In this document: in pieces, positions 26,217 to 64,000 of the stretch
Numbering within the stretch: position 1 is the first letter of the stretch
Layout: each line of letters starts with the position of its first letter
Assembly: GCA_964356915.1 (NCBI GenBank)
Contig: CAYHJF010000001.1
Coordinates: 146,200 to 210,199, forward strand
Direction: 5' to 3'
DNA: 64,000 bases
From: an uncultured Candidatus Saccharibacteria bacterium
Lineage (GTDB): Bacteria > Patescibacteriota > Minisyncoccia > Ryanbacterales > GWA2-47-10b
Position numbers and translations under genes: made by a program
Notes under the pieces: model-generated
The model's database searches: none
Seen by the model: only the letters and a program-made list of their open reading frames with translations
What the model was told of the DNA's origin: nothing

Positions 26217-26217
26217 T

Positions 26218-28937: not shown

Positions 28938-29048
28938 CCGCCTATCGGATAAATCTTATCAATCCTGATGAGATCTACTGCTTTATCGACATGTACTGCA
29001 TTTATAAAATGCTTGTAACGCTCTAAAGCTTCGAATACTTATTTGTTG

Positions 29049-51065: not shown

Positions 51066-51801
51066 TACCGTGCCGACCAGACCAAATAAACTACTTGGCC
51101 AAAATTTTTTGCGCTCAGAAAAAATTGTACTTAAAATCATCGATACGGCAAAACTTTCTTCGAGTGACACTGTGCTTGAAGTGGGACCGGGGAAAGGCAT
51201 ACTCACAAAAGAACTCGTCTCTCGAGCAGGTCATGTTATCGCAATCGAAAAAGATGCGCGATTCGCTGAACATATTAAACAAGAATTCGCTCGCGAAAAA
51301 AACTTAGAAATACTCTGTAACGACATCCTTCGTATCGACCGTGAGCTCATCGGCCTTCGAGAAGGAGACTACACTATCGTCGCAAATCTTCCTTACTATC
51401 TTACGTCTCATTTTCTTAGACTTTTTTTAGAAAAATCGCCACGACCAAAAACAATGGTCCTTATGGTACAAAAAGAAGTTGCGCTTCGCATCATTGCTTC
51501 ACCTCCTAATATGAATTTACTTGCGCTGTCCGTCCAAGCATTCGGAAGACCACGTATCGTTGTACGCGTGCCCAAAGAGCTTTTCAGTCCAAAACCAAAA
51601 GTTGACTCCGCTGTTATTGAAATATCTCAAATAAGCGAAAAGTTCTTTACAGACAACCACATTACGCCATCTCAATTCTTTCAACTTACTAAAAAAGCAT
51701 TTGCACAAAAGCGCAAAATGCTTAGAAACTCACTTGGCATCAACTCTGAAAAGCGCCCTCAAGAACTTTCGCTTGAAGATTGGTTAGTTCATCTGCGTTG
51801 A
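51037..51801 (+). CDS. rsmA: 16S rRNA (adenine1518/1519-N6)-dimethyltransferase RsmA/KsgA
   Basis: LGQNFL, VLEVGPGKGILT (SAM motif I), NLPY motif. Start at the internal Met overlapping the helicase end. Confidence 0.8.
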   Translation: MKKKPSRLTNTVPTRPNKLLGQNFLRSEKIVLKIIDTAKLSSSDTVLEVGPGKGILTKELVSRAGHVIAIEKDARFAEHIKQEFAREKNLEILCNDILRIDRELIGLREGDYTIVANLPYYLTSHFLRLFLEKSPRPKTMVLMVQKEVALRIIASPPNMNLLALSVQAFGRPRIVVRVPKELFSPKPKVDSAVIEISQISEKFFTDNHITPSQFFQLTKKAFAQKRKMLRNSLGINSEKRPQELSLEDWLVHLR

Positions 51802-52956
51802 ACCATTTTCGCCCGTAGACCCACCACTTCCCTCTGAACTATTTGAATTACCGGAATCATCAGTACCTTGATTTTCGTTTGTTTTCTGTGGGTCATCGCA
51901 AGCGCATTTATTTGTATATTCGGAGACATTACCAATGGTTGGTGGAAAGATTCCATCCCAAATTGCATTATTCCATCCCTCGCACGTCTTATTGAGACAC
52001 CCTAGATGAATGTCACAAAGCTCTGACTGTGCATCTTTACCTGCAAATGGCCCACAATCGGTCATGAAAACAGGGATATATCCGTAAAACTTAATCCCGC
52101 AATTACAACAAAAAGAGTAAAAATCCTTTCCTACGTTGCCTTGTGCAGGATTGATACCCTTGAAACACGTATCAAAGGTCTCCCAAATCCCAGGAACATT
52201 AATTTGGGCGTGAGCCTCTGGCACCGCAGTAAATACAAGAGAAATAACACGTCCTAACTGCTCTTCATAATCAGCGATAACGGGGTGAGACAAGTCAAAA
52301 ACATCAAAAATCGATGCCTGAGGTCTACGTAAAAGAGCTTTTCTTTGCTCAAGCAGTCTCGGATATCCCTTTGTAACTGCATACCGCGCCGCCGCTCGAG
52401 CCTTTTCGTCAGGATATGCTCCGTGATCAATAAGAATCTCTTGTGTCGCACCTAAAAACTCCAAGACCCGAGGCTCTGTATCAAGTGCCTTGCGTTTCTG
52501 CGAGTCAATCCATCCAATTTCAATGAGCTGACCTTGAATATGGTTAAGGCTTGCAAGATAAAAACTTGGGAACAAGTCATCAAAAATCTCCCGTTCGCTC
52601 AATACTTTCTGTGCGGGAAGATTCTGAGGGTTTTTTATAGGATTAACGATCGGCTTTGTGATAGAGCTGAAAGGATCCACAATATTCTCAAATGGAACGG
52701 GGACAATGGTCTGACCCCCAAAACCACCTCCACTCTCTCCAAATGCGTTCAATATCTGCTGATTTTTTGGCTTATTTGTGTCTTGAGGTCTCGTAAGAGA
52801 TACATTTGGCGTTTCCACTCCAACCTGATGAACATTTCCAGTAAAAAAACCACCGAGCACTCCGAGTGCAATAATAAAAACCCCCACAATGCCAACAAGT
52901 TGCAAACGACCAATTTCCATCAACGCCAGTATACACCCGAAAAATTCTTTATCCAC
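51784..52956 (-). CDS. hypothetical N-terminally anchored extracytoplasmic protein with Cys-rich C-terminal region
   Basis: TM helix near the N-terminus. Cys cluster (CFKG..CCNCG..C..CD..C..C..C.C). S/G-rich tail. Divergent from the secretion operon. Confidence 0.35.
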   Translation of the reverse strand: MDKEFFGCILALMEIGRLQLVGIVGVFIIALGVLGGFFTGNVHQVGVETPNVSLTRPQDTNKPKNQQILNAFGESGGGFGGQTIVPVPFENIVDPFSSITKPIVNPIKNPQNLPAQKVLSEREIFDDLFPSFYLASLNHIQGQLIEIGWIDSQKRKALDTEPRVLEFLGATQEILIDHGAYPDEKARAAARYAVTKGYPRLLEQRKALLRRPQASIFDVFDLSHPVIADYEEQLGRVISLVFTAVPEAHAQINVPGIWETFDTCFKGINPAQGNVGKDFYSFCCNCGIKFYGYIPVFMTDCGPFAGKDAQSELCDIHLGCLNKTCEGWNNAIWDGIFPPTIGNVSEYTNKCACDDPQKTNENQGTDDSGNSNSSEGSGGSTGENGSTQMN

Positions 52957-52972: not shown

Positions 52973-53878
52973 TTGCACAGGATTGAGTGGTATAATAATA
53001 GCGGTGAAAAATATTCACCAACCACTTTGAGTTACATGCCTTCGAAAAAAATTCTTTTTGCCATCACCCTTGCTCTCACCATTATCGGTGGTACTGTTTT
53101 TGTCTCTAATCACAACGAAAGTCAAAAGAATATCATCCCAAAGCATGAGGCGGCGCTAAAAGCAGAGGTTATTCGTTCAGGAAAAGATTGGCAAAACACA
53201 CTTTCCGATAATCAATCCTTAAGCGGAAAGCAATTTACAACAAACCCCGAACAGAATCTCTTTGAAAACCTGGTACGCGGATATGGAGAAACGGTTATTT
53301 CAAACCAAACAACCAACCTCTCACAAGAATCGCTCCAAAATATTGCGGACGCCGTTGCGGCTGATGCTGACCTATCGGTAAAGGCAAATAAAAACCCTTA
53401 CTCCGCGACCGACGTAATGGTAGATCAGAAAGAAACGGTGAAAGAATACTTTAATAATGTTGCTCGCATAAGTAAGAAGTATTTTCCCGACAACTCAAAC
53501 AATGAAATTCTCGTAATAGGCAAAGCAGCCGCGACCAAACAAGTACAGACATTAGCAGAAGAGTTACAGTCTCATCATTATAGTTATAGCCAAGTAGCAA
53601 AAGAACTTGCTCGCGTTCATGTTCCACCGGAAGCGGTTGAAGTACATGTGGCATTTCTCAACTCATTTGCAAATGTTGCGCTCGCGATAGATGAAATTAG
53701 CGCGTTTAGCAGGAAAGACCCCCTCACTGGAGTACTTGGAATGGAAAACTACAAACTTGAACTTATTGAAGTCCCAAAAATATTTGCAAAAGCAAAGGCA
53801 CTAGCTCAAGCAAATCACATCGTATTTGCATCCGATGAGCCTGGGTACGAACTTCAAAAATATTTTGACAAAATATGA
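52973..53878 (+). CDS. hypothetical membrane-anchored protein (first gene of the secretion-system operon)
   Basis: TM (ILFAITLALTIIGGTVFV). True start possibly the internal Met at 53036. 4-nt overlap with the next gene. Confidence 0.35.
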   Translation: MHRIEWYNNSGEKYSPTTLSYMPSKKILFAITLALTIIGGTVFVSNHNESQKNIIPKHEAALKAEVIRSGKDWQNTLSDNQSLSGKQFTTNPEQNLFENLVRGYGETVISNQTTNLSQESLQNIADAVAADADLSVKANKNPYSATDVMVDQKETVKEYFNNVARISKKYFPDNSNNEILVIGKAAATKQVQTLAEELQSHHYSYSQVAKELARVHVPPEAVEVHVAFLNSFANVALAIDEISAFSRKDPLTGVLGMENYKLELIEVPKIFAKAKALAQANHIVFASDEPGYELQKYFDKI

Positions 53879-54867
53879 TCTCTAAACGCTACCAAAAAAT
53901 TATTGCGACATCTCTCCTTTTACTTTTGGTACACGCGGAGATTGCGCTCGCTGTCGTACCAACATGGGATGTAGGATTGAACGGACCTCCTCCAACTTTA
54001 AGTTTGGGTAACTACGGGATTCTCACTGCTCAAAGCGGTTGGGATGTAAGTAAAGAAAAGCAAATTGTTCTTCCGAGCCTTGATCTTTCCTCTATTGGAA
54101 GTTTTGCCTCAAGTGTTGCTGACGCGGCAGCATCTGCGGCATCAAACCTTATTCCTTCATGGGATAATATTATGTGGTATTTAACCCGCCTGATTGTGCA
54201 AGAATTGAAAAAAGAAGTCATTAGCTGGGCACAAGGAGGATTTCAAGGCGGGCCATCATTTATTGAGAACCCTGAACGATTTTTCACGAATGTGGGAGAC
54301 CAAGCATCTGCAATATTTATGGAAGAATTGGGCACTCGACTGACGGGAAATCCAAATTTTCTCTGTGAAGATTTCTCGTTCCAAATTCAACTCGCACTCC
54401 CCGGATATGGTAAATATGAAACACGCGCGGGATGTACAATCAACAAAGCAACCGAAAACTTTAAAAACATGTCGCAACACTTTGATAACTTTGAGAAAGG
54501 CGGATGGAAATCATTCGTTAATATCTCTCAAGAACAAAATAATTTTGGTGGGGCATACATGATGACATTTGATGCACGAAACGCTGCGATCAACCAGGCG
54601 ATTGGGAATCGCGCAGCAGCAGCTGGGTGGTCACAAGGATATCTTGGATCAGAAAATTGCCCTCCTGGCGCGCGAACACAATATGGGTGTCGAGGCTTTA
54701 AAGTCCAAACCCCTGGGAAACTTATCGGTGACCGTGTCGCACAAGCAGTGGGTACCGACTTTGAATCAGTTATCACCGCCGATGAGGTGGGGGAGGTGAT
54801 ACAAGTTCTTATCGATATGGCGATACAAAAGGTTGTTACCGATCTCGCGAATGGAGATAACGAATAA
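53875..54867 (+). CDS. hypothetical secreted protein (signal peptide)
   Basis: MISKRYQKIIATSLLLLLVHAEIALA signal peptide. Translationally coupled on both sides. Confidence 0.35.
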   Translation: MISKRYQKIIATSLLLLLVHAEIALAVVPTWDVGLNGPPPTLSLGNYGILTAQSGWDVSKEKQIVLPSLDLSSIGSFASSVADAAASAASNLIPSWDNIMWYLTRLIVQELKKEVISWAQGGFQGGPSFIENPERFFTNVGDQASAIFMEELGTRLTGNPNFLCEDFSFQIQLALPGYGKYETRAGCTINKATENFKNMSQHFDNFEKGGWKSFVNISQEQNNFGGAYMMTFDARNAAINQAIGNRAAAAGWSQGYLGSENCPPGARTQYGCRGFKVQTPGKLIGDRVAQAVGTDFESVITADEVGEVIQVLIDMAIQKVVTDLANGDNE

Positions 54868-54869
54868 TT

Positions 54870-57401
54870 ATGAAATTCTTTTCAAAATTTATCATCGTAG
54901 CTATCGTTCTCTCTATACTTTTCGCACCCGTGCAACCAGCACTTGCAAGTCACGATGGAACATCTCACGAAGAACCAAATTACACGCCCGCCCAAGACCC
55001 TAACAGTGAAAAGGTTATAAGAGACTCTGGAGTTCAAAATCGTCCGGGGGCAACACAGCGCGGAGGGATCCCCGATCCAGCGCACGGGATGGTTACTCCT
55101 GCGGGAGGGACTCCACCGACGGAGGCAGCCGCTGACACTGGCTGCATTAAAACAGGACCTCTTGGCGTTCCGTACCCTGGTGACTTAAAGATGTGTGTCG
55201 TAGAAATTTTTGCTCACATAGCAAACTGGGTAATGTGGGGCATGTCATGGTTTGTCTGGATGTCAGCAAAGTTTCTTAACATGGCTCTTGCCATTCAAAA
55301 CGAAGCGTTTATCGATCCTGTTCTTGTAAATGTCGGGTGGCAGATTGCGCGTGACACCGTAAACATGTTCTTTATTCTGGTTATACTCGTTATTGCGATT
55401 TCAATGATCCTTGGCCTCGGACAATATGGAACTAGTCAGACGCTCGTATCTCTCCTCATATCTGCCGTGCTCATTAACTTTAGCCTCCCGCTCACGGGTA
55501 TTGTTATTGATTTTTCAAATACACTTGGTAATACCTTCTACGACAAAATGGGAAGCGAGCAGGATAACGACATCGCTGGCATGGAAGGCATACGAAAACG
55601 CGATATCTCTGTCGTGTTAGTCAGTGGATTTGCCGTTCAAAAAACATTTCAAACAACGGGAACCGCTACTTTTGGGTCATCATTCAATACAATATCGAAC
55701 ATCATTCTCAATGGACTCATGGGATCTATTCTCATGGCCATTATGTCATTCACACTCCTTGCGGCTACGGCACTCTTGATTATGCGAATTATCGTGCTCT
55801 GGATACTAATGATCCTCTCGCCACTCGCTTTCTTCGCAAATGGAGTCCCAAGCTTAAAAGGATACTTTGGCACCTGGGCAAGTAAGCTTATGCGACAAGC
55901 ATTTTTCTATCCCGCCTATATGTTTATGCTCTATCTCGTCGTATCGGCAATCGACGGGGGAGTTATTGAGCATCTCTTTAAAAGCCAACACGCGCTGAGT
56001 ACCGCAAGCATGTTTCAATCAGCCGAAGCACAAGCATTTACGGGAGCGATCACATCAAAGGTAAATATCATCCTTGGATTCGTCTTTTTGGGAGCTCTAA
56101 ATATCGCTGCTCTCACCGTGGCAACAAGCATGGGTGCCTATGGAGCGGGCGCTGTCATGAAGCAATGGGGGAGCGTCTCTGGTCAAGCACGATCTCTCGG
56201 AAGACGAATCGCCACCTCTCCACTACGCTCACGCGCAGCAGGAGCGGTCGCATCTGGAGTTGCCACGACCACTGGGTCTGCCGCTGGCCTTGCCGGTCGT
56301 ATACCTCTTATCGGCAACGCAACAGCTCGTGGGCTTGCTCGTGCTGGCAGTGCCCCTCAACGAGCCTATACCAAAGCGGCCGAAGAGCGCGCCACTCAAC
56401 GAACTGACTACATGAAGACGCTCTCTCCGCGAGACTTTACCGCAAGCATGCACACAATAACGCAACCTCAAGATCAGGCACGTGCCTGGAAAAATGCCAA
56501 CGATTCACAGCGCGCTTCATATATGCAAAGTCTTGATCCTCAAGCACAAGTACAGTTCATCAACTCAGTCCATGGACACGTCGCCCAGCAACAAGGAACT
56601 CGTGAAGCTGACGCATTTAGGAAACAGGCAGCCTTGTCTGGAGGTGGGGTCGGAACCGCACTCACGGCACTCTACGGTCAGCAAAGCCCCATACTACAAA
56701 GATTTAATGGGAGAGCTGCTACCGATATTACAGACGCGGAGTTTGCTGCAGCGGGCACAACGCGCTCACAATACACAACAGAACGTCAATCTCGCATGGG
56801 TAACTTGGTACGCAATATGAGTGAAGGTGATCTTGGAAAAGTTGCCGCCGCATCAGTCGCAGGGGACACTGATTTCCGTCGTGCACTCCTCGAACAAGGA
56901 AAAGATGTAAACAAGCTTACTGAGATCAAAGAAGGTGTGAGCGAAGATACACGACGAGCATATGAAGAGTTCTCAGCTCTTACAAAGAACCCCTCGCGTG
57001 CAGTAGAGCTACGCTATGGTATGCCCGAACCTCAAGCAGGTGCCTCTCAACAAGAGATCGATGCGTTCCAAGGGAATATGAATGAATGGGTTGGGAATAT
57101 GGATGACAAGACGGTCAGTAAGCTCGATGCAAACGCGATTAGAAATAATCACTACTTGCAAAACGCCATGGCACAGATGTTTAGCCCTCAAGACATTAAG
57201 CGTGTTGCAAGTAACACTGAACGGGCGCAGGCTTTGCACGATCTCTTTTATCGAGATCAGGGCGTTAATCGCTCACCAGAATTTAATCAATTTGTACAAG
57301 ATAATCAGAGACTTTCAAAAGGAATTAAAGGAAACGCTGGAGTCCGATCAGTCATATTCGGCGGTCGCGTAGCAACAAAGCGTGATGTCGATACTCCATA
57401 A
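54870..57401 (+). CDS. VirB6/TrbL-like polytopic membrane protein with long hydrophilic C-terminal tail
   Basis: Signal peptide, at least 6 TM helices in the central 350 aa, then a roughly 400-aa A/G/R/Q-rich soluble tail. This architecture and its position upstream of VirB3/VirB4-like genes fit T4SS VirB6 homologues. Confidence 0.45.
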   Translation: MKFFSKFIIVAIVLSILFAPVQPALASHDGTSHEEPNYTPAQDPNSEKVIRDSGVQNRPGATQRGGIPDPAHGMVTPAGGTPPTEAAADTGCIKTGPLGVPYPGDLKMCVVEIFAHIANWVMWGMSWFVWMSAKFLNMALAIQNEAFIDPVLVNVGWQIARDTVNMFFILVILVIAISMILGLGQYGTSQTLVSLLISAVLINFSLPLTGIVIDFSNTLGNTFYDKMGSEQDNDIAGMEGIRKRDISVVLVSGFAVQKTFQTTGTATFGSSFNTISNIILNGLMGSILMAIMSFTLLAATALLIMRIIVLWILMILSPLAFFANGVPSLKGYFGTWASKLMRQAFFYPAYMFMLYLVVSAIDGGVIEHLFKSQHALSTASMFQSAEAQAFTGAITSKVNIILGFVFLGALNIAALTVATSMGAYGAGAVMKQWGSVSGQARSLGRRIATSPLRSRAAGAVASGVATTTGSAAGLAGRIPLIGNATARGLARAGSAPQRAYTKAAEERATQRTDYMKTLSPRDFTASMHTITQPQDQARAWKNANDSQRASYMQSLDPQAQVQFINSVHGHVAQQQGTREADAFRKQAALSGGGVGTALTALYGQQSPILQRFNGRAATDITDAEFAAAGTTRSQYTTERQSRMGNLVRNMSEGDLGKVAAASVAGDTDFRRALLEQGKDVNKLTEIKEGVSEDTRRAYEEFSALTKNPSRAVELRYGMPEPQAGASQQEIDAFQGNMNEWVGNMDDKTVSKLDANAIRNNHYLQNAMAQMFSPQDIKRVASNTERAQALHDLFYRDQGVNRSPEFNQFVQDNQRLSKGIKGNAGVRSVIFGGRVATKRDVDTP

Positions 57402-57406
57402 ATATT

Positions 57407-57994
57407 ATGTCTTACCCAAGAACTGAAATAGAAAAACGATACGAAAACCTTCCTGAATCACTCAAGGAGCTTTTGTTTGCGGACGAAACAACCGAACACA
57501 TTGAAGCGCTCGGACAAAAGTATAATTTACTTCTCGATAAAACTGGCGCCCTTTCCGAAGAGGTGGGATACTTTGTTCTTGGTCTCACTCATCCAAAAAA
57601 TTTCCGCGGGCGGATCATTAGCGCGACAGGTGTATCTGATATTCAAGCAAACGAAATTATCGAAGACCTCAACAACTCCCTTTTCCGACCGCTCCGTAAC
57701 GAACTCATGGCGCTTCACGGGGAAGGGGACGCAGCGTTTATAACAACAGTCACTCCGAAACCGGAGAGCGCATTCTCATACCAAAGCATTAAACCGAAAC
57801 CGATTCCTTCGGCGCCAGTTTTCAGCTCAACTACATCTCCCGCCCAATCTCAACAAACAACAACGCCATCTCAATCCGTACAATCACCTCAAGTAACTGA
57901 GACTCGACCGAGCGCAACTGAAAAACTCGTACCTTCATCTCCTCAGACCCAAAGCACGATTATCAATGATCCGTACCGTGAGATACCTACATAA
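57407..57994 (+). CDS. hypothetical protein with S/T/P/Q-rich C-terminus
   Basis: ORF with RBS spacing. Low-complexity tail (SAPVFSSTTSPAQSQQTTTPSQSVQSPQ). Confidence 0.3.
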   Translation: MSYPRTEIEKRYENLPESLKELLFADETTEHIEALGQKYNLLLDKTGALSEEVGYFVLGLTHPKNFRGRIISATGVSDIQANEIIEDLNNSLFRPLRNELMALHGEGDAAFITTVTPKPESAFSYQSIKPKPIPSAPVFSSTTSPAQSQQTTTPSQSVQSPQVTETRPSATEKLVPSSPQTQSTIINDPYREIPT

Positions 57995-58002
57995 TATTTC
58001 CC

Positions 58003-58413
58003 ATGCAACAGTTTCAAGTTCCACAATTCATTGATGTCGAAGATAAAATCTTCGGACAGCTTACCGCAAAGCAATTTCTTTACCTCTTAGGAGGTGGAGC
58101 GTTTATGCTCGTCTTTTGGCTCATGCGCCTACCTACGATCATACTTTTTTTTCTTATGGCTCTATTTGGTGGATTCTTTGGAGCGCTCGCATTCGCAAAA
58201 GTTAACGGCCAACCATTTGTCGTATTTCTCAATAATGCCGCAAACCACTACATACACCAGCGCATCTACATATGGAAGCGCCGAGAAAAAAAAGCCGAGG
58301 CAGCCGCAGAAATAGCCGCCGCCACAACTCCATATACGCCCAAACTTACAAAAAATGCTCTCAAAGAACTATCCTGGTCGCTTGATATTAAGAACGTTGA
58401 ACATAGACGATAA
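58003..58413 (+). CDS. VirB3-like small two-TM protein
   Basis: 136 aa with two adjacent TM helices (FLYLLGGGAFMLVFWLM; IILFFLMALFGGFFGALAF), immediately upstream of the VirB4 genes with a 1-nt overlap. This is the conserved VirB3-VirB4 arrangement. Confidence 0.4.
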   Translation: MQQFQVPQFIDVEDKIFGQLTAKQFLYLLGGGAFMLVFWLMRLPTIILFFLMALFGGFFGALAFAKVNGQPFVVFLNNAANHYIHQRIYIWKRREKKAEAAAEIAAATTPYTPKLTKNALKELSWSLDIKNVEHRR

Positions 58414-59087
58414 TGGCATTTGTTGAATCAAAACTCGCCGCAAAAGCAGCCGCATCCCAAGAGCTCGTCCCTATTCGAGAAGTTCGTAATGGCGTCGTTA
58501 TTTTAAAGGATGGCTCTCTTCGTGTTGTATTGATGGCCTCGAGTCTCAATTTTGCTCTCAAATCAGCCGTGGAGCAGGATGCTATCATTCTTCAGTACCA
58601 AAATTTTCTTAATTCTCTCGATTTCTCAATCGAGTTTTTCATTCAATCCCGCAAACTCAATATCGAGCCTTACCTTGAAACACTACGCGCACGACTCAAA
58701 GTAGAAACAAGCGAGCTTTTGAAAATTCAGATCTCTGAATATATTACATTTGTAAAAGATTTTGTAACAACAGCAAATATTGTTTCGAAAACATTCTATG
58801 TTGTTATTACATACGTTCCATCTTCAATTACCGTGAACTCAGCGACTGGTGGTTTTTTTGGAAAAAAGAACTCTGGGAAGGCCTTCGATGAATCAAAATT
58901 TCAAGAATATCAAGTGCAACTCTCTCAACGCTCAAGCGTAGTTATCGACGGACTCGCACGATGCGGCGTGCGCGCAGTACCACTCAACACAGAAGAACTC
59001 ATTGAACTTTATTATGGTCTTTACAACCCAGGTGAAGCGGAAAAGGGGGGCGCACCCGAACTTCTCAGTCAGGAGCAACAAGGATAA
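58413..59087 (+). CDS. VirB4/TrbE N-terminal domain encoded as a separate ORF
   Basis: LVPIREVRNGVVILKDGSLRVVLMASSLNFALKSAVEQDAIIL resembles the N-terminus of Gram-positive-type VirB4 ATPases (ip..i.dGiivtkDg.y..il.v.piNf.l.s..Eq). Ends 4 nt before the VirB4 core ORF in a different frame. Confidence 0.5.
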   Translation: MAFVESKLAAKAAASQELVPIREVRNGVVILKDGSLRVVLMASSLNFALKSAVEQDAIILQYQNFLNSLDFSIEFFIQSRKLNIEPYLETLRARLKVETSELLKIQISEYITFVKDFVTTANIVSKTFYVVITYVPSSITVNSATGGFFGKKNSGKAFDESKFQEYQVQLSQRSSVVIDGLARCGVRAVPLNTEELIELYYGLYNPGEAEKGGAPELLSQEQQG

Positions 59088-59091
59088 TTAT

Positions 59092-60909
59092 ATGGGAATT
59101 TTTGACTTTCTATCAAAAAAAGAACCGAGCAGCGAAGCTCTGCCCGTTCTTCCGCAAGAAATTTATACTTCCGGACTTTTAGAGCTACAAGACGTTATCG
59201 CACCGTCTGCACTTGAGGTCAATTCAAACTACATCCGACTCGGAGAAAAGCTCGCGCGTACTATTTTCGTATTCGCGTACCCACGGTTTCTTGCAACAGG
59301 GTGGTTTTCGACAACGATAAACCTCGATAAAATTTTTGATGTCGCGATTTACATTCACCCCGTCGACACAAGTATTGTTATGCGACAACTTCGAAAAAAG
59401 GTTGCGCAGGTACAGTCACAGATCTCTACACGAGAAGAAAAGGGGCTCGTCCGTGATCCAATGCTCGATACTGCACACCAAGATCTCGAAAGTCTTCGCG
59501 ATAAACTTACTCAGGCACAAGAAAAGCTCTTTCAGTTTGGAATCTATCTCACGATCTACGCGAACACCATAGAAGAACTCAATCAAAATGAGACTGAAAT
59601 TAAATCGCTTTTAGAGGCTCGCCTCGTCTATTCAAAACCCGCACTCTTTCAACAGAAAGAGGGTCTCAATACCGTATTTCCATTTGGGAAAGATGAAATC
59701 GGCGTATACAGCTTCTTTAACTCATCCCCCGCCTCATCTGTCTTTCCATTTGTCTCCTTTGATCTCACCTCAAACAAAGGGATCTTGTTTGGCATCAACC
59801 GCCACAACAACTCCCTCATTCTCTTCGATCGCTTTGGAATGGAAAATTATAACTCAGTTATGTTCGCAAAGTCTGGATCTGGAAAATCATATACTACCAA
59901 ACTTGAGATTCTTCGCTCTCTTATGTTTGATACTGACGTAATCGTCATCGACCCAGAACGCGAATATGAGTACCTTGCCGAGTCCGTAGGGGGGCGCTAT
60001 TTTAATATCTCTCTTACCTCAAAGCACCACATCAATCCATTTGATTTACCCGTGCCTCGCGAAGATGAATCGCCTGCAGATGTCCTACGCTCGCACATCA
60101 TTGGACTCGTCGGGCTATTCCGACTCATGCTTGGCGGTCTCACACCTGAAGAGGATGCAATTATCGACCGCGCGATCACAGAAACATATGCCGCGCGAGA
60201 CATTACACCTAATGCTGATTTTTCTCAAACAGCCCCTCCAACTCTATCAGATCTCCAGCTCGTACTTGCAAACATGCAGGGCGGGGAAAATCTTGGAATA
60301 CGTCTTAAAAAATATACGGAAGGTACTTGGGCTGGGTTTATTAACCAACCCTCAAACGTTAACATCAATCAACGGCTAATCGTCTTTTCAATCCGTGACA
60401 TGGAAGAAGAGCTTCGCCCAATCGCAATGTATCTTATCGTTAACTATATCTGGAGCGCAGTACGTCGAAGTCTCAAAAAACGCCTACTCGTCATCGATGA
60501 GGCGTGGATCATGATGAAATCTCAAGACAGCGCATCTTTTCTTTACGGCCTTGTAAAGCGGGCTCGCAAATATTATCTTGGCGTCGCTACTATTACGCAA
60601 GATGTCGCTGATTTTATGCAATCACCGTATGGCAAGCCAATTGTCACTAACTCATCGATTCAACTTCTTCTTAAGCAATCTCCTGCCTCCATTAACGCAG
60701 TCCAAGATATTTTTAATCTTACTGAAGAGGAAAAGTTTCTTCTTCTGGAATCTGACGTTGGGGAGGGGATCTTCTTTGCAGGCCTTAAACACGTAGCGAT
60801 TAAAGTACAGGCATCCTATACCGAGCATCAAATCATCACTTCTGATCCAAAAGAACTTCTTGCCATTAAACAAGCAAAAGATTCAATACAAACAGGGGGC
60901 ACCTTTTAG
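59092..60909 (+). CDS. VirB4/TrbE/CagE-family type IV secretion ATPase (core and C-terminal ATPase domains)
   Basis: YPRFLATGWFSTTINLD (VirB4 middle-domain pattern), Walker A MFAKSGSGKS, Walker B LLVIDEAW, ITQDVADF. Start at MGIFDF with RBS aggat. Confidence 0.7.
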   Translation: MGIFDFLSKKEPSSEALPVLPQEIYTSGLLELQDVIAPSALEVNSNYIRLGEKLARTIFVFAYPRFLATGWFSTTINLDKIFDVAIYIHPVDTSIVMRQLRKKVAQVQSQISTREEKGLVRDPMLDTAHQDLESLRDKLTQAQEKLFQFGIYLTIYANTIEELNQNETEIKSLLEARLVYSKPALFQQKEGLNTVFPFGKDEIGVYSFFNSSPASSVFPFVSFDLTSNKGILFGINRHNNSLILFDRFGMENYNSVMFAKSGSGKSYTTKLEILRSLMFDTDVIVIDPEREYEYLAESVGGRYFNISLTSKHHINPFDLPVPREDESPADVLRSHIIGLVGLFRLMLGGLTPEEDAIIDRAITETYAARDITPNADFSQTAPPTLSDLQLVLANMQGGENLGIRLKKYTEGTWAGFINQPSNVNINQRLIVFSIRDMEEELRPIAMYLIVNYIWSAVRRSLKKRLLVIDEAWIMMKSQDSASFLYGLVKRARKYYLGVATITQDVADFMQSPYGKPIVTNSSIQLLLKQSPASINAVQDIFNLTEEEKFLLLESDVGEGIFFAGLKHVAIKVQASYTEHQIITSDPKELLAIKQAKDSIQTGGTF

Positions 60910-60912
60910 TGT

Positions 60913-61431
60913 ATGGACGAAGAATACGAATTTGCAGCAGACCTACATAGCTCTCGATTATTAGATGCTGAGAGATTAAAACATCTCGTAGTCGATGCTG
61001 CGGAACGAGTCGCTCGAAAACTCAACGAGCTTATTGCTCAAGGACATGACACTACAGCGTTTTCAATTGCCTTATTTCTTGCCCTACTCAAAGATGTCGT
61101 ACTAGATTTTCTCCTTGATTTTACCGGTATCGGACTTATTCCTGTTCTTGGCCAATTACCTGGACTCTTTGTAAGTGCCGCTCTCATGTACTTTTTATGG
61201 GGGAAAGGATGGTTTTTGGCGCCTCGAGTACGAATTATCTGGTGGATCTTTGGATTTTTCTTTGATAACCTACCTCTTTTTGAAGAATTGCCCATCACAA
61301 TCATTGTAGTTCTTTACGCATGGCACATTGTTCGTAAACGAGCGGAGAAAGCCCAAGCTCAACTTGAGAATCTCAACTCCCTAACTGAAAGAGAACTGGA
61401 AGAGATTGAGGATGAGTTAGTTATAGCCTAA
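60913..61431 (+). CDS. small polytopic membrane protein (candidate pilin/VirB2-like or accessory subunit)
   Basis: 3-4 hydrophobic helices in 172 aa. Tightly linked to VirB4. Confidence 0.3.
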   Translation: MDEEYEFAADLHSSRLLDAERLKHLVVDAAERVARKLNELIAQGHDTTAFSIALFLALLKDVVLDFLLDFTGIGLIPVLGQLPGLFVSAALMYFLWGKGWFLAPRVRIIWWIFGFFFDNLPLFEELPITIIVVLYAWHIVRKRAEKAQAQLENLNSLTERELEEIEDELVIA

Positions 61432-61459
61432 CGATGCCAGGAACGTTATAATAAAAGAA

Positions 61460-62638
61460 GTGATGCATACGCTCAGAAAAAAAATATCAGCAACATTGCC
61501 TATCTTGATTATAATCTCGTGCTTCTTCGCGTCTTCTGTATCAGCCCAAGAAATCGCATCCACAACACCTCAAGTTTTTACCCCACAAGACCTTACCGTT
61601 GAGCAACAACTCATCATACGAAAACAAATCCTTGATCTATTTGGCATCCCTACCGACGCTCAAATTAGTCTTTTTGATACGATAAAGGGAAATCCATTTG
61701 GAAATAGCCTACCAGGAAAACTTGACCCTCTTCGTGATGTGGAGATTGTTGTTGGAGACGAAGCACTACAACCAGGAACACGCGGATCTTTATATGTAGT
61801 CGCGGCAAACACAAACCTACGCCAATCAACAATCACGTGGTCACGAAACAACAAGATAGAAGCCTCAGGGAAAGGAGCAACTGTTTTTTCCTTTCCTGTA
61901 GGAGCGATCGGATCGCGTGATATTATAAAAGTGACTATACGAACGCCTGAAGGTAGCGTGAAGCAGCTAACCAAAACCATTAACCCCGCGCGCATTCACT
62001 TTGCCTGGTCAACAGACTCCTACACCCCGACATGGTATCGAGGAAAAGCTCTTCCAGTCCCTGGTTCAGGCATTAGTGTAACCGCCTTTCCTGAAGTCCG
62101 AGTAAATAATATTCCTGTCCCTCAGGCAAACCTTGATTACGAATGGTCTGTAAATGATGAGGTGCGCCTACGAGAACAACGGGGGGCATCAACGTTTTCT
62201 TTTTTGACATCGGAGTTCCAGCGTACACCCTATCAAATTAGCGTGCGGGTACGTGACTCTCAGCGTAATGTTGTCCACCGAGAAACAATATTAATAAAAA
62301 CTGTAAGTCCATTTATCAGATTTTATCGAGAGGACGCGCTTTATGGACTCATGACAAATGCTTCCATCCAAAATCTTGTACTAAAACCAGGTGATGATTC
62401 TTTAATTGATTTTGAGCCTTACCACATGCCCTACGGCGCACTTGATAATATGGCTTTCCGGTGGGATTTTGGATCCAATCAAGGACAGCAAACAGGGATT
62501 AATGACCGCAAGCTACGCATCACCACTCCATCAGACGGACTCTCCAGTTGGTCTCTCTCAATATCATACTCAACTCCCTCACATGTGCTCTTGCGTGGAA
62601 AATCTGACCTCTTAACTATCAGTAATCAATCTCTCTAA
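61460..62638 (+). CDS. hypothetical secreted protein (signal peptide)
   Basis: MMHTLRKKISATLPILIIISCFFASSVSA signal. Beta-rich composition. Confidence 0.35.
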   Translation: MMHTLRKKISATLPILIIISCFFASSVSAQEIASTTPQVFTPQDLTVEQQLIIRKQILDLFGIPTDAQISLFDTIKGNPFGNSLPGKLDPLRDVEIVVGDEALQPGTRGSLYVVAANTNLRQSTITWSRNNKIEASGKGATVFSFPVGAIGSRDIIKVTIRTPEGSVKQLTKTINPARIHFAWSTDSYTPTWYRGKALPVPGSGISVTAFPEVRVNNIPVPQANLDYEWSVNDEVRLREQRGASTFSFLTSEFQRTPYQISVRVRDSQRNVVHRETILIKTVSPFIRFYREDALYGLMTNASIQNLVLKPGDDSLIDFEPYHMPYGALDNMAFRWDFGSNQGQQTGINDRKLRITTPSDGLSSWSLSISYSTPSHVLLRGKSDLLTISNQSL

Positions 62639-62641
62639 ATT

Positions 62642-63856
62642 ATGTCTCGCAGAACTCAAATAATTCTCGGCATCATCGCCATCATACTCATTATCGCCCT
62701 TGGCGTGTGGCTCTTTTTACGGAACCGAACTGGGTCCACAGCAGGAGGAGGGCTACCATTTTTTGGAGGAGGGAATCTACCTTCAACAGGAGGGAATGGG
62801 GGATCTTTGGGCGGAGGATCGACTCCTGGAGGAGAGCTGGAGAATATTCCTACGGGCGGTACTGTACCCGTAACTGAAGAAGAGAAAAAGCGTCTCGTCC
62901 AGCTCACCCATGAACCAACAATTGGAGCTACTGTAAGTCCAGCTGAAAATCGAGTTATGTACTTCAAACTTGGTCTCGGACATCTTTTTGACACCGCATT
63001 TGACGGAGAAGGTGGGGAAGTGAACCTCTCCACAATCACAACAAAAAATATCATTGACGTGGACTGGTCAACAAAAAAAACGTATGCCTTTGTCACTGGG
63101 CTTATTAACGACTCTGTTGAAAATCACTGGTTTCACATAACAAGCACTTCTACAGTAGAACACGGCACGTTTCGTGAACCGATCGTAAGTGCGGATTTTT
63201 CTCCATCAGCAGAAAAGCTCGTTACCATAGTAAGAGCCGGGAAAACATCGACCGTACGTACCTCGAACCCCGATGGATCAAATATGAAACAACTTATCGC
63301 ACAACAAATCCCCGATCTAGATGTCGAGTGGATTAGGCAAGATCTCGTATTTCTTAAAACGAAAACTTCTGCGTTCGCAGAAACTCTCCTTGAGACTGTT
63401 TCTATTCCTTCCGGAATATCAACGTTCGTACCATTCAACCAAAAAGGAGTTGATGTTTTATGGCACCCCGATGGTGACCAATATCTCGCATCTGTAAGCG
63501 ATGATAATGGGGCCTTTAGTAGCATCACACTTCGATCGCGCACATCTCCAAATTACAAACCATTTCTCTATCGCACCGTACCCGAAAAATGTTACTTCTC
63601 TAAAAAAGATTCGAAAGTTCTCTATTGTGCAATTCCGAAAAATTTTACCGTTGACTCTATGCCTGACATTTGGTGGCAAGGAAGTATACAGTTCTCTGAT
63701 GAGCTCTGGAAAATCAATATCGAAAGTGGCGAAACAACAATTCTTCTTGATGGTGGTGGCTTCGACATAACAAACCTGTTTACATCTCCAAATGAAAATT
63801 TCATTTTCTTTATTAATAAAAATGACCTAACTCTTTGGAGCTATAGACTTTTATAA
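62642..63856 (+). CDS. membrane-anchored Gly-rich, beta-propeller-like (PD40/TolB-like repeats) protein
   Basis: N-terminal TM (IILGIIAIILIIALGVWLF), G-rich linker, recurring xPDGxx motifs (SNPDGSNM; WHPDGDQYLA; SPNENFIFF) as in TolB/DPP-IV-type propellers. Confidence 0.35.
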   Translation: MSRRTQIILGIIAIILIIALGVWLFLRNRTGSTAGGGLPFFGGGNLPSTGGNGGSLGGGSTPGGELENIPTGGTVPVTEEEKKRLVQLTHEPTIGATVSPAENRVMYFKLGLGHLFDTAFDGEGGEVNLSTITTKNIIDVDWSTKKTYAFVTGLINDSVENHWFHITSTSTVEHGTFREPIVSADFSPSAEKLVTIVRAGKTSTVRTSNPDGSNMKQLIAQQIPDLDVEWIRQDLVFLKTKTSAFAETLLETVSIPSGISTFVPFNQKGVDVLWHPDGDQYLASVSDDNGAFSSITLRSRTSPNYKPFLYRTVPEKCYFSKKDSKVLYCAIPKNFTVDSMPDIWWQGSIQFSDELWKINIESGETTILLDGGGFDITNLFTSPNENFIFFINKNDLTLWSYRLL

Positions 63857-63858
63857 GT

Positions 63859-64000
63859 ATGAAAAAAAATACCGCGCGTATACTAACCCTTACTCTTATA
63901 GCGATCGCTCTTCCGCTCTTCGTTTCCGCAGAAATTCAATATGGCCTATCAGCTCCTCTACCAGGAGGATCCTTGGCCACAAAGACAAGCCCTCAGATCG
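63859..64000 (+). CDS. signal-peptide protein, 5-prime part only (runs off window end)
   Basis: ATG at 63859. MKKNTARILTLTLIAIALPLFVSAEIQYG... is a typical Sec signal. Continues past the window. Confidence 0.3.
   Translation, partial: MKKNTARILTLTLIAIALPLFVSAEIQYGLSAPLPGGSLATKTSPQI

What the first reader, a model, noticed from the sequence alone, without database searches (positions are those of the whole stretch)
52973..64000. Operon of at least 11 genes encoding a VirB4-centred type IV secretion-like machine
All genes are co-oriented with 0-30 nt spacing or 4-nt overlaps. They are: two N-terminally anchored or secreted proteins, a VirB6-like polytopic protein with a 400-aa tail, a low-complexity protein, a VirB3-like 2-TM protein, VirB4 (split; see next finding), a small polytopic protein, two secreted proteins and a TM-anchored propeller-like protein. 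The operon continues off the window end. No VirD4 or relaxase lies within the window, so it may be a non-conjugative T4SS, as proposed for episymbiotic CPR bacteria (established for some Saccharibacteria). Most components have no recognisable homology and could be novel subunits.
Basis: partly seen in the sequence, partly recalled or inferred. Interest (0 to 1): 0.7.

Follow-up and report, generated by a model that had tools for sequence, protein, structure and literature searches.

The report
Patescibacteria chromosomal type IV secretion operon
This is the chromosomal, origin-proximal type IV secretion operon typical of ultrasmall Patescibacteria (CPR) bacteria; it has no nearby conjugation genes and was described in the literature in 2023-2025, so it is a real and biologically important machine but not a new kind.

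Summary
Eleven co-oriented ORFs (53036 to about 64671) sit 28 nt apart or closer. The operon ends one gene past the window, against convergent jag-yidC-rnpA and then dnaA-dnaN.

Five components can be assigned:
- VirB4 ATPase, monoderm CD1110/MPF-FATA type.
- A separate TrsD-like VirB4 N-terminal gene.
- PrgI/VirB3.
- A TrbL/VirB6-like polytopic protein.
- A VirB2-like pilin (PF18895).

No VirD4 coupling protein or relaxase was found in the window or in the 10 kb downstream. None was found among the large unassigned ORFs around virB4 in 80 related genomes.

The whole operon and its neighbours (uvrD-ksgA ... yidC-dnaA) keep the same order across Paceibacteria. VirB4 is more conserved there than DnaA (70% versus 48% median identity). 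The VirB4 "split" is the ancestral two-gene state, as in pSK41 TrsD/TrsE, and not a frameshift.

This matches the Patescibacteria-clade T4SS of Quiñonero-Coronel et al. 2025 and Wang et al. 2023, where it is essential for epibiotic growth.

Added here:
- g10 is a TolB-like beta-propeller.
- g9 carries PKD/Ig-like repeats.
- Pilin relatives carry fused peptidoglycan hydrolase domains.
- g2 is a very large helical family with no solved fold match.

Verdict: new member of a known kind. The substrate remains unknown.

The parts
53036..53878 (+). g1: 280-aa protein with an N-terminal TM anchor and an all-helical ectodomain; lineage-specific accessory subunit
   Evidence: One TM segment at residues 6-24. 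Family present in 47/48 related loci with enough upstream flank. 23/49 relatives carry bacterial TSP3 Ca-binding repeats, which points to an extracytoplasmic location. No match to Prg/Trs proteins. The single-sequence AF2 model is unusable, pLDDT 35.
53875..54867 (+). g2: 330-aa secreted protein with a conserved, roughly 230-aa Cys-containing helical core; unknown fold
54870..57401 (+). g3: 843-aa VirB6/TrbL-like polytopic membrane protein with a roughly 420-aa hydrophilic C-terminal tail
   Evidence: About 6 TM segments in residues 1-420. Precomputed Pfam hit PF19590 TrbL_3. 9/42 family members hit PF04610 TrbL/VirB6, best 8.6e-8. The window protein itself gave no hit in my own hmmscan runs. 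Present in 48/48 loci.
57407..57994 (+). g4: 195-aa soluble protein with a conserved roughly 100-aa N-domain, a P/S/T/Q-rich linker and a conserved C-terminal DPYRE motif (D and Y invariant, P and E in at least 90% of sequences)
   Evidence: No TM segment. 60-sequence alignment: D188 and Y190 invariant, P189 and E192 present in at least 90%. No Pfam or Prg/Trs match. Present in 48/48 loci.
58003..58413 (+). g5: VirB3-like PrgI-family 2-TM protein
   Evidence: PF12666 PrgI, 1.4e-9, 38.7 bits against a gathering score of 27. 2 TM segments. Family HMM hits pSK41 TrsC and pCF10 PrgI weakly. Present in 46/48 loci.
58413..59087 (+). g6: TrsD-like protein, the N-terminal domain of VirB4 encoded as a separate gene
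   Evidence: NCBIfam hits: VirB4_plasma 3.7e-8, TrsD/TraD 6.9e-5, CD1110 residues 2-122 at 8.5e-5. Precomputed PF26593 TraC-like. Separate from g7 in 74/74 loci with a median gap of 7 nt and all three relative frames; one relative has 4.9 kb inserted between them. pSK41 has the same TrsD (227 aa) plus TrsE (672 aa) layout.
59092..60909 (+). g7: VirB4 ATPase (C-terminal part, 605 aa), monoderm CD1110/MPF-FATA type
   Evidence: NCBIfam conju_CD1110, 1.7e-107, 360.6 bits against a cutoff of 325, covering profile positions 177-734. PDB 4AG5 VirB4 C-terminal domain, 4.4e-45; Walker A GSGKS and Walker B VIDEAW are visible in that alignment. Family HMM hits PrgJ at 2.8e-58 and TrsE at 9.3e-50. More than 8000 homologue clusters; the top 120 are all 586-643 aa.
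60913..61431 (+). g8: 172-aa small 3-TM membrane protein; variable or optional accessory subunit
   Evidence: 3 TM segments. 34-sequence family; P127 is invariant and G80 near-invariant, lying in the loosely conserved IP..G and E.IP....LP consensus stretches. Recognised in 17/52 loci. Many other loci have an unassigned small ORF in that slot, and about 13 have no room for one.
61460..62638 (+). g9: 392-aa secreted protein with three PKD/Ig-like beta-sandwich repeats
   Evidence: N-terminal hydrophobic segment read as a signal peptide. A threefold W...NG...G.G.K repeat pattern with invariant W127, W229 and W335. Weak Ig-fold hits in PDB, Hoc at 0.005. Several members hit PKD, PKD_3 and BiPBP_C. 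Present in 51/52 loci.
62642..63856 (+). g10: 404-aa protein with an N-terminal TM anchor, a Gly-rich linker and a TolB-like beta-propeller
   Evidence: TM segment at residues 7-25. The family profile hits TolB structures at E 1e-9 to 6e-9 and designed 'Cake' propellers at 1e-12. Present in 52/52 loci.
63859..64000 (+). g11 (runs about 671 nt past the window; 270 aa on the source contig, L001:11218-12030): VirB2-like T4SS pilin with a C-terminal 12-Cys domain; last gene of the operon
   Evidence: PF18895 T4SS_pilin, 2.1e-7, 31.3 bits against a gathering score of 26.6. N-terminal hydrophobic segment plus a 2-TM hairpin, and 12 Cys. 49/61 family members hit T4SS_pilin and 4 hit TrbC/VirB2; C-terminal extensions in relatives are CHAP, Peptidase_M15_4, SLT, NlpC/P60, VanY or Amidase_5. 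Followed by convergent jag.

Best explanation
[quoted passage not shown] It derives from the monoderm (MPF-FATA) conjugation machinery but is no longer linked to conjugation genes.

Shown here:
- A two-piece VirB4 ATPase (g6 TrsD-like N-domain plus g7 ATPase), a VirB3/PrgI-like protein (g5), a VirB6/TrbL-like polytopic protein (g3) and a VirB2-like pilin (g11).
- These are co-transcribed with six conserved lineage-specific proteins, four of them extracytoplasmic: g1 helical, g2 helical with conserved Cys, g9 PKD/Ig repeats, g10 TolB-like propeller.
- The operon lies beside the dnaA-dnaN origin-type gene cluster.

Inferred mechanism:
- VirB4 hexamers dock on the VirB3/VirB6 membrane platform. 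They use ATP to extract pilin from the membrane and build a pilus or tube.
- g9, g10, g1 and g2 form the wall-spanning and host-contact part. This takes the place of the VirB7-10 core of diderms and the VirB8-like scaffolds of Firmicutes.
- The machine mediates contact-dependent exchange with the host cell on which the bacterium lives: export of proteins or hydrolases, and/or acquisition of host macromolecules. It does not carry out relaxase-driven DNA conjugation.
- The substrate and its direction are not established.
For: - Component assignments: VirB4 CD1110 family at 1.7e-107, above the curated cutoff; 4AG5 at 4.4e-45 with intact Walker motifs; PrgI above gathering; TrsD-like N-domain; TrbL/VirB6 at family level; T4SS_pilin above gathering; TolB-like propeller; PKD/Ig repeats.
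- Operon structure: gaps of -4 to 28 nt; ends at convergent jag-yidC-rnpA, then dnaA-dnaN.
- No T4CP or relaxase in the window or in the 10 kb downstream. None among the 25 strongest Pfam families matched by the 32 representatives of unassigned ORFs of at least 280 aa in 80 related loci.
- Vertical inheritance: the order uvrD-ksgA-g1..g7-(g8)-g9-pilin-g10-jag-yidC-rnpA-dnaA-dnaN recurs across Ryan-, Giovannoni-, Nomura-, Vogel-, Taylor-, Campbell-bacteria and others. Core genes are present in 44-52 of 48-52 loci that have enough flank.
- Constraint: median identity to the window is 70% for VirB4 and 52% for TrsD-like, against 48% for DnaA, 45% for UvrD and 36% for YidC in the same genomes.
- Composition: no GC anomaly over the operon.
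- Literature: a Patescibacteria VirB4 clade nested in MPF-FATA, with TrsD, PrgI, VirB6 and PF18895 pilins near virB4, relaxases nearly absent, and proximity to dnaA/dnaN/rnpA/rpmH/ksgA in Paceibacteria (PMC12102498). T4SS genes and pilins are essential for epibiotic growth of Southlakia epibionticum (PMC10633639; PMC12857230). Tubular structures, possibly T4SS pili, were seen at the host interface of a cultivated member that takes up host RNA (bioRxiv 10.64898/2026.06.21.733656).
Against: - No experiment bears on this genome or on any Paceibacteria T4SS.
- The rest of the genome could not be searched, so a distal VirD4 (common in Patescibacteria according to PMC12102498) or an unrecognised relaxase may exist.
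- No VirB8-like or VirB1-like subunit was recognised in the operon.
- The window's own g3 does not reach significance against TrbL models in my scans.
- Roles of g1, g2, g4 and g8-g10 are inferred only from topology, fold class and co-conservation. The g2 model is of moderate confidence (pLDDT 68.8).
- A 150-aa C-terminal domain on the pilin is atypical for a polymerising VirB2.
Confidence: 0.82

Rival explanations
1. It is a functional conjugation (DNA export) system. Its coupling protein and relaxase are encoded elsewhere in the genome or are too divergent to recognise.
For: The machinery derives from monoderm conjugation systems: CD1110/PrgJ/TrsE-type VirB4, PrgI and TrsD. VirD4 homologues occur far from virB4 in most Patescibacteria genomes (PMC12102498). 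Only 64 kb plus 10 kb of this genome could be inspected.
Against: No relaxase or T4CP in the window, downstream, or among the large unassigned ORFs around virB4 in 80 relatives. Relaxases were found in only 103 of 3035 Patescibacteria genomes. The operon sits in a fixed position amid housekeeping genes with no integrase or att-like boundaries and normal GC. VirB4 is more conserved than DnaA, which is unlike mobile-element genes. The distal t4cp was not essential in S. epibionticum whereas the T4SS genes were.
Confidence: 0.07
2. It is an uptake machine: a T4SS run 'in reverse', like ComB of Helicobacter or the archaeal Ced system. It imports host DNA, RNA or nucleotides for a bacterium that cannot make them.
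For: Patescibacteria lack nucleotide synthesis. A cultivated member takes up host RNA and shows tubular structures at the interface that may be T4SS pili. In class ABY1 the T4SS loci sit beside comF, recG and radA. g7 has a weak CedB hit at 1.9e-10. A ComM-like gene lies 6 kb upstream.
Against: The CedB and CedD scores (40 and 21 bits) are far below their cutoffs of 700 and 600. A comEC deletion abolished competence in S. epibionticum but not viability, so essentiality of the T4SS is not through transformation. No nucleic-acid-binding component was recognised in the operon. The 2026 preprint itself calls the mechanism unresolved. This rival overlaps with the 'acquisition' branch of the best explanation.
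Confidence: 0.2
3. It is only an adhesion organelle: a VirB4-assembled pilus used for host attachment, with no substrate translocation.
For: A VirB2-like pilin is present and conserved. g2 relatives carry Ig-like and carbohydrate-binding domains typical of adhesins. There is no coupling protein for substrate recruitment.
Against: The same window already encodes a full type IV pilus system, which is the attachment organelle in Saccharibacteria. A VirB6-like channel protein with a large tail and the conserved cytoplasmic protein g4 would be hard to explain. Pilin relatives carry peptidoglycan hydrolase domains, which suggests wall penetration rather than simple adhesion.
Confidence: 0.1
4. It is a decaying remnant of an integrated conjugative element. 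The VirB4 gene is broken by a frameshift and the system is non-functional.
For: VirB4 is in two ORFs in different frames, 4 nt apart. Relaxase and T4CP are missing.
Against: The two-ORF state is found in 74/74 relatives in all three relative frames, with one relative carrying 4.9 kb between the two genes. The top 120 homologues are all 586-643 aa. pSK41, a working conjugative plasmid, has the same TrsD/TrsE split. Walker motifs are intact. VirB4 identity (70%) exceeds that of DnaA. All eleven ORFs are intact.
Confidence: 0.01

Closest known systems
Patescibacteria-clade T4SS, Paceibacteria arrangement (Quiñonero-Coronel et al. 2025, Microb Genom, PMC12102498)
   Same: VirB4 with an adjacent TrsD homologue, PrgI/VirB3, VirB6 and a PF18895 VirB2-like pilin. 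No relaxase or T4CP nearby. Chromosomal location next to dnaA, dnaN, rnpA, rpmH and ksgA.
   Different: Nothing essential. That paper leaves the other neighbours unassigned. Added here: g10 as a TolB-like propeller, g9 as PKD/Ig repeats, g2 as a very large helical family, g4 with a DPYRE tail, and pilin-hydrolase fusions in relatives. This genome has the rare gene order g9-g10-pilin, found in 1 of 46 relatives.
Southlakia epibionticum ML1 T4SS, SEML1_0006-0019 (Wang et al. 2023, Cell, PMC10633639)
   Same: A Gram-positive-type T4SS with predicted pilins. No recognisable coupling protein or relaxase in the cluster. The same phylum.
   Different: It belongs to a different class (Saccharimonadia). 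It has an array of 6 divergent pilins and separate peptidase and lysozyme genes downstream of virB4. Here there is one pilin with a Cys-rich tail and no hydrolase gene in the operon. Essentiality was shown there and is not tested for Paceibacteria.
Staphylococcus pSK41/pGO1 Trs conjugation system (MPF-FATA subclass)
   Same: The same local module: a small VirB2/CagC-like protein, TrsC (VirB3-like), TrsD (227 aa, VirB4 N-domain) and TrsE (672 aa, VirB4 ATPase) as separate genes. g7 hits TrsE at 9.3e-50 and g6 hits TrsD at 1.2e-4.
   Different: pSK41 is a plasmid with a VirD4-like TrsK, a relaxase, a CHAP hydrolase TrsG and a topoisomerase. None of these is in this operon. g1, g2, g4 and g8-g10 have no Trs counterpart.
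Enterococcus pCF10 Prg/Pcf T4SS
   Same: PrgI and PrgJ (VirB4, CD1110 family) homologues.
   Different: pCF10 has a single-gene VirB4, VirB8-like PrgL and PrgD, the PrgK hydrolase, the PcfC coupling protein, a relaxase and LPXTG adhesins, and no pilin. None of those was detected here.

Membership tests
Type IV secretion system (VirB4-defined superfamily) | VirB4-family ATPase with intact Walker A and B motifs, not FtsK or HerA | tested here: met
   conju_CD1110 at 1.7e-107 (360.6 bits, cutoff 325). TraC, VirB4_CagE and TrbE models all hit; no FtsK model is listed. 4AG5 at 4.4e-45, with GSGKS and VIDEAW visible in the alignment.
Type IV secretion system (VirB4-defined superfamily) | VirB3-like small membrane partner encoded beside VirB4 | tested here: met
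   PF12666 PrgI, 38.7 bits against a gathering score of 27. 2 TM segments. Lies immediately upstream of g6 and g7.
Type IV secretion system (VirB4-defined superfamily) | VirB6/TrbL-like polytopic channel protein | tested here: inconclusive
   Precomputed PF19590 TrbL_3 on this exact protein. 9/42 orthologues hit PF04610 at up to 8.6e-8. My own hmmscan of the window protein found nothing.
Patescibacteria-clade T4SS (MPF-FATA-derived) | VirB4 falls in the Patescibacteria clade nested in MPF-FATA | tested here: inconclusive
   Proxy evidence only. The best curated model is the monoderm CD1110 family. All named hits among the top 120 homologues are Patescibacteria, at 71-100% identity. No phylogeny was built.
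Patescibacteria-clade T4SS (MPF-FATA-derived) | Separate TrsD-like gene next to virB4 | tested here: met
   g6 hits TrsD/TraD at 6.9e-5 and the VirB4 N-terminal regions of two full-length models. PF26593 precomputed. Separate gene in 74/74 relatives.
Patescibacteria-clade T4SS (MPF-FATA-derived) | VirB2-like pilin (PF18895/PF04956) near virB4 | tested here: met
   g11 hits PF18895 at 31.3 bits against a gathering score of 26.6. 49/61 orthologues hit it as well.
Patescibacteria-clade T4SS (MPF-FATA-derived) | Chromosomal, near dnaA/dnaN/rnpA/ksgA, without an adjacent relaxase | tested here: met
   ksgA lies 1.2 kb upstream and dnaA about 1.8 kb downstream of the last gene.
Conjugative T4SS (plasmid or ICE) | Relaxase (any MOB class) linked to the T4SS | tested here: not met
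   None in the window, in the 10 kb downstream, or among the 25 strongest families matched by large unassigned ORFs in 80 related loci. The rest of the genome was not searchable.
Conjugative T4SS (plasmid or ICE) | VirD4/TcpA-type coupling protein | tested here: not met
   Same searches as for the relaxase. A distal copy cannot be excluded.
Conjugative T4SS (plasmid or ICE) | Mobile-element context: integrase or att boundaries, atypical composition, variable insertion site | tested here: not met
   Fixed synteny with uvrD-ksgA and jag-yidC-rnpA-dnaA across relatives. GC is 0.42-0.49, like the rest of the window. The only integrase-family gene (40327-41202) is 12 kb away among housekeeping genes.
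Firmicutes-type monoderm T4SS (Prg/Tra/Trs) | VirB8-like (NTF2-fold) scaffold such as PrgL or TraM | tested here: not met
   No operon family matches PrgL, PrgD or TrsH by HMM or hhalign or VirB8 structures by profile search. These tests have low sensitivity. The only candidate by size and topology, g1, is predicted all-helical.
Firmicutes-type monoderm T4SS (Prg/Tra/Trs) | VirB1-like peptidoglycan hydrolase in the cluster | tested here: inconclusive
   No hydrolase domain in the eleven window proteins. Pilin orthologues in relatives carry CHAP, SLT, M15 or NlpC/P60 domains. A LysM-M23 peptidase lies 4 kb upstream.
Archaeal Ced / DNA-import systems | CedB or CedD ATPase equivalog | tested here: not met
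   CedB at 40 bits against a cutoff of 700; CedD at 20.9 against 600.

The most novel reading that the evidence does not exclude
The six conserved Paceibacteria-specific proteins would form a previously undescribed wall-spanning and host-contact module bolted onto a minimal VirB3/4/6 motor. These are the g10 TolB-like propeller, the g9 PKD-repeat protein, the helical g1 and g2, the cytoplasmic g4 with its DPYRE tail, and g8. The VirB2-like pilin would display exchangeable C-terminal 'warheads': peptidoglycan hydrolases in many relatives and a 12-Cys domain here. These would breach the host envelope. The system would then work as a feeding tube that acquires host macromolecules (for example RNA), rather than as an exporter.
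Probability: 0.15. Interest if true: 0.8.

Novelty: new member of a known kind. Interest (0 to 1): 0.35.

Why it matters
The T4SS of Patescibacteria is one of the few machines shown to be essential for the epibiotic lifestyle of this very large, mostly uncultivated group. Its substrate is an open question. This locus adds no new principle. It is, however, a clean and complete Paceibacteria example: 11 genes, with boundaries defined on both sides. The comparative data gathered here could guide structural or genetic work once Paceibacteria become tractable:
- VirB4 is more conserved than DnaA.
- A near-universal set of accessory proteins accompanies it, including a TolB-like propeller and a PKD-repeat protein.
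- The pilins carry swappable hydrolase or Cys-rich C-terminal domains.

Tried and rejected
- Single-sequence searches of g2 and g1 in the word-indexed protein database found almost nothing: 2 hits and 1 hit. An alignment query would have been the right choice.
g2 was rescued through the exhaustive representative search.
- The g1 single-sequence AF2 model was useless, pLDDT 35.
- The idea that g2 is VirB5-like, or that g1 is VirB8-like, has no support.
- Promoter and terminator scans were no better than shuffled sequence.
- hhalign between operon families showed no internal paralogy. This includes the two Cys-rich proteins, g11 and the divergent 390-aa gene.
- Family HMMs and hhalign against pCF10 and pSK41 proteins recognised only VirB4 strongly, and TrsD, TrsC and PrgI weakly.
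- My hmmscan runs of g3 (whole, N-part and tail) found no TrbL model, although a precomputed hit exists.
- Rejected: FtsK/HerA translocase, frameshifted pseudogene and ICE remnant.
- Synteny of the upstream LysM-M23 gene with the operon could not be assessed, because most 10-kb flanks end before it.

Full report
**Observation.** The + strand between 52973 and the window end carries eleven ORFs in a row. With the start codons used by gene callers on the source contig, they are:

| Gene | Coordinates | Length |
|---|---|---|
| g1 | 53036-53878 | 280 aa |
| g2 | 53875-54867 | 330 aa |
| g3 | 54870-57401 | 843 aa |
| g4 | 57407-57994 | 195 aa |
| g5 | 58003-58413 | 136 aa |
| g6 | 58413-59087 | 224 aa |
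| g7 | 59092-60909 | 605 aa |
| g8 | 60913-61431 | 172 aa |
| g9 | 61460-62638 | 392 aa |
| g10 | 62642-63856 | 404 aa |
| g11 | from 63859 | 270 aa on the source contig |

Gaps between successive genes are -4, 2, 5, 8, -1, 4, 3, 28, 3 and 2 nt. The 79-nt spacer to the divergent upstream gene contains a TGgTATAAT-like element at about 52988-52999, and the ATG at 53036 is the called start. Generic promoter and terminator scans were uninformative.

**Where it comes from and where it ends.** An exact-sequence look-up of g10 found the locus on contigs from Hainich groundwater well H41, 0.1-µm fraction, and on a 284,758-bp NCBI MAG contig labelled Patescibacteria group bacterium. Beyond the window there is one more operon gene, g11 (270 aa). 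Sixteen nucleotides after it come convergent jag (R3H), yidC and rnpA, and then dnaA and dnaN. The operon is therefore exactly eleven ORFs and sits beside the dnaA-dnaN origin-type gene cluster. Upstream lie uvrD/pcrA, ksgA and a divergent 390-aa Cys-rich membrane protein.

The rest of the window is ordinary chromosome. It holds a type IV pilus cluster, nusA, an H+-pyrophosphatase, trigger factor, RNase Y, PNPase, S15, the CCA-adding enzyme and eight tRNAs. GC content over the operon (0.42-0.49) is like the rest of the window.

**What the genes are.**
- **g7** is a VirB4 ATPase. NCBIfam conju_CD1110 scores 1.7e-107 (360.6 bits, above the curated cutoff of 325) and covers profile positions 177-734. 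TraC, VirB4_CagE, TrbE and the mycoplasma ICE VirB4 model also hit. It aligns to the solved VirB4 C-terminal domain 4AG5 at 4.4e-45, with Walker A (GSGKS) and Walker B (VIDEAW) present. No FtsK model appears. CedB and CedD scores are far below their cutoffs.
- **g6** matches the N-terminal 120-140 residues of full-length VirB4 models and the TrsD/TraD family (PF26593).
- **g5** is a PrgI/VirB3-family protein, above the gathering score.
- **g3** carries a precomputed TrbL_3 hit, and 9 of 42 orthologues hit PF04610 TrbL/VirB6. My own scans of the window protein were negative, so I rate this assignment as good but not airtight.
- **g11** is a VirB2-like pilin, PF18895 at 31.3 bits against a gathering score of 26.6. 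It has an N-terminal hydrophobic segment read as a signal peptide, a two-helix hairpin and an unusual 150-aa C-terminal domain with 12 cysteines.

**The 'split' VirB4.** The top 120 of more than 8000 g7 homologues are all 586-643 aa. In 74 of 74 related loci where both parts were found, g6 and g7 are separate ORFs. The median gap is 7 nt and all three relative reading frames occur. In one relative (L032) 4.9 kb of other genes lies between them. The working staphylococcal plasmid pSK41 has the same TrsC-TrsD (227 aa)-TrsE (672 aa) layout. The split is therefore an old, functional two-gene arrangement, not a frameshift.

**Conservation and context in relatives.** A scan of one genome per species returned 80 loci from Paceibacteria lineages (Ryan-, Giovannoni-, Taga-, Nomura-, Campbell-, Vogel-, Taylor-, Sung-bacteria and others), with VirB4 at 67-85% identity. 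tblastn and iterated HMMs on my own ORF calls show the same order almost everywhere: uvrD-ksgA-g1-g2-g3-g4-g5-g6-g7-(g8)-g9-pilin-g10-jag-yidC-rnpA-dnaA-dnaN.

Presence among loci with enough flank:

| Gene | Loci with the gene |
|---|---|
| g1 | 47/48 |
| g2 | 44/48 |
| g3 | 48/48 |
| g4 | 48/48 |
| g5 | 46/48 |
| g6 | 47/48 |
| g8 | 17/52 |
| g9 | 51/52 |
| g10 | 52/52 |
| pilin (g11) | 47/52 |

g8 is variable.

Median identity to the window proteins in the same genomes:

| Protein | Median identity |
|---|---|
| VirB4 (g7) | 70% |
| TrsD-like (g6) | 52% |
| DnaA | 48% |
| UvrD | 45% |
| KsgA | 40% |
| YidC | 36% |
| DnaN | 32% |
| Accessory proteins (g1, g2, g3, g4, g9, g10) | 26-32% |

This is the signature of a vertically inherited core function, not of a mobile element.

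**Absence of conjugation genes.** No T4CP or relaxase is encoded in the window or in the 10 kb downstream. I clustered all ORFs of at least 280 aa in the 80 related loci that were neither assigned to an operon family nor matched to the flanking housekeeping genes, which gave 32 representatives. Their strongest Pfam matches are PBP1, PilB, PilC, H+-PPase, NusA, release factor and the like. No T4CP or relaxase family appears among the 25 strongest families. I could not search the rest of this genome.

**The uncharacterised subunits.**
- **g10.** The family profile hits TolB beta-propellers at E about 1e-9 and designed propellers at 1e-12. g10 is therefore a membrane-anchored TolB-like propeller.
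- **g9.** It has a threefold repeat with invariant tryptophans, weak Ig-fold hits, and PKD or BiPBP_C hits in several members. I read it as three PKD/Ig-like domains.
- **g1.** It is TM-anchored and predicted all-helical. 23 of 49 relatives insert bacterial TSP3 calcium-binding repeats, which places the protein outside the cell. The single-sequence model was unusable.
- **g4.** It is cytoplasmic, with a conserved N-domain, a low-complexity linker and a conserved C-terminal DPYRE motif; D188 and Y190 are invariant, and P189 and E192 are present in at least 90% of sequences.
- **g8.** It is a small 3-TM protein with one invariant proline.
- None of these families is related to another operon family or to any pCF10 Prg/Pcf or pSK41 Trs protein in the tests I could run. 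No VirB8-like or VirB1-like protein was recognised in the operon.
- **Pilin orthologues in relatives** range from 102 to more than 600 aa. Their C-terminal extensions include CHAP (5), Peptidase_M15_4 (3), SLT (2), NlpC/P60 (2), VanY and Amidase_5 domains. In part of the lineage the VirB1-type hydrolase function is thus fused to the pilin-like membrane hairpin.

**Comparison with the literature.** Quiñonero-Coronel et al. 2025 (PMC12102498) surveyed 3035 Patescibacteria genomes. They describe this system:
- A monophyletic Patescibacteria VirB4 clade nested in MPF-FATA.
- TrsD as the commonest neighbour of virB4, together with PrgI/VirB3, VirB6 and PF18895/PF04956 pilins.
- VirB8 and VirB1 mostly undetected.
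- Relaxases in only 103 genomes, and T4CP homologues mostly far from virB4.
- In Paceibacteria, proximity to dnaA, dnaN, rnpA, rpmH and ksgA.

Wang et al. 2023 (PMC10633639) showed by Tn-seq that the T4SS genes and pilins are essential for epibiotic growth of Southlakia epibionticum. They noted the lack of coupling protein and relaxase. A 2025 review (PMC12857230) summarises these points and adds that a comEC deletion abolishes competence but not viability. A 2026 preprint reports host RNA uptake and tubular structures, possibly T4SS pili, in a cultivated member, and calls the mechanism unresolved. That paper text does not mention TolB-like propellers or CHAP domains.

**Mechanism.**
- Shown: the parts list, the operon structure, the conservation and the lack of linked conjugation genes.
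- Inferred from established T4SS biology: VirB4 hexamers on a VirB3/VirB6 platform power pilin extraction and assembly of a pilus or tube.
- Inferred from topology and co-conservation: g9, g10, g1 and g2 build the wall-spanning and host-contact part, and g4 acts on the cytoplasmic side.
- Function: most likely contact-dependent exchange with the host cell. Direction and cargo are unknown.
- Rivals and their probabilities: conjugation with distal genes (about 0.07), an uptake machine (about 0.2, overlapping with the main model), adhesion only (about 0.1), and a decayed remnant (about 0.01).

**Verdict.** The system is a typical member of an already published kind, so novelty is 'new member of a known kind' and interest is moderate to low (0.35). 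The residual novelty lies in the lineage-specific accessory proteins and the polymorphic pilin tails.

Noticed in passing
window 62642-64000 and L001:10001-12030; relatives L007-L086: The window has the gene order g9-g10-pilin. 45 of 46 relatives with all three genes have g9-pilin-g10, and only L065 shares the window's order. This is a local swap of the last two genes.
   Followed up: partly
L001:11218-12030 (starts at window 63859): The VirB2-like pilin has a 150-aa C-terminal domain with 12 cysteines and a weak knottin-like hit (Huwentoxin-II, 0.007). In relatives the equivalent extension is absent or is a peptidoglycan hydrolase domain (CHAP, M15, SLT, NlpC/P60, VanY, Amidase_5). Seven relatives have two tandem pilin genes.
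   Followed up: partly
window 57407-57994: g4 ends in a conserved DPYRE motif after a low-complexity P/S/T/Q linker (D and Y invariant, P and E in at least 90% of 60 sequences). It looks like a short docking motif, but no partner is known.
   Followed up: no
window 59092-60909 compared with L001:13842-15206: VirB4 is more conserved among Paceibacteria than DnaA, UvrD, KsgA, YidC or DnaN from the same genomes: 70% median identity against 48, 45, 40, 36 and 32%.
   Followed up: yes
L032:~4000-10000: In one relative about 4.9 kb with five ORFs lies between the TrsD-like gene and virB4. The two halves of VirB4 can therefore be unlinked.
   Followed up: no
L040:12410-17304: There is a tandem duplication of the pilin-g10 module, with a g9 fragment between the copies.
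   Followed up: no
window 51784-52956 (-): A divergent 390-aa protein has an N-terminal TM segment and 11 cysteines. It shares the 79-nt promoter region with the operon. It is recognisable in only 6 relatives and is unrelated to the Cys-rich pilin tail by hhalign.
   Followed up: partly
window 3098-12243 (-): A complete type IV pilus cluster is present: PilB 10486-12243, PilC 9185-10426, PilM 4149-5219, a T2SSM_b-like protein and several unassigned proteins. A histidine kinase lies at 12611-13642. T4P and T4SS are both essential in Saccharibacteria.
   Followed up: partly
window 47925-48971 (-): A LysM + Peptidase_M23 protein lies 4 kb upstream of the operon. The 2025 survey notes such domains on VirB1-like proteins, so it may supply the missing wall hydrolase. 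Synteny could not be assessed because most flanks end before it.
   Followed up: partly
window 45644-47164: A ComM/Mg-chelatase-family AAA+ protein (competence-associated helicase family) lies 6 kb upstream.
   Followed up: no
window 23734-31525: A cluster of large surface-type proteins is present: 763 aa with He_PIG/Big_9 Ig domains (23734-26025, -), 558 aa with MopE-like metal-binding motifs (26218-27894, -) and a 753-aa pectate-lyase-like protein (29264-31525, +). They are possible host-adhesion factors. GC dips to 0.39 at 28-30 kb.
   Followed up: no
window 54870-57401: Tool discrepancy: the precomputed Pfam table lists PF19590 TrbL_3 for g3 without a 'weak' mark, but local hmmscan of the whole protein or of its N-terminal 477 aa returns nothing at E<=1.
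   Followed up: partly
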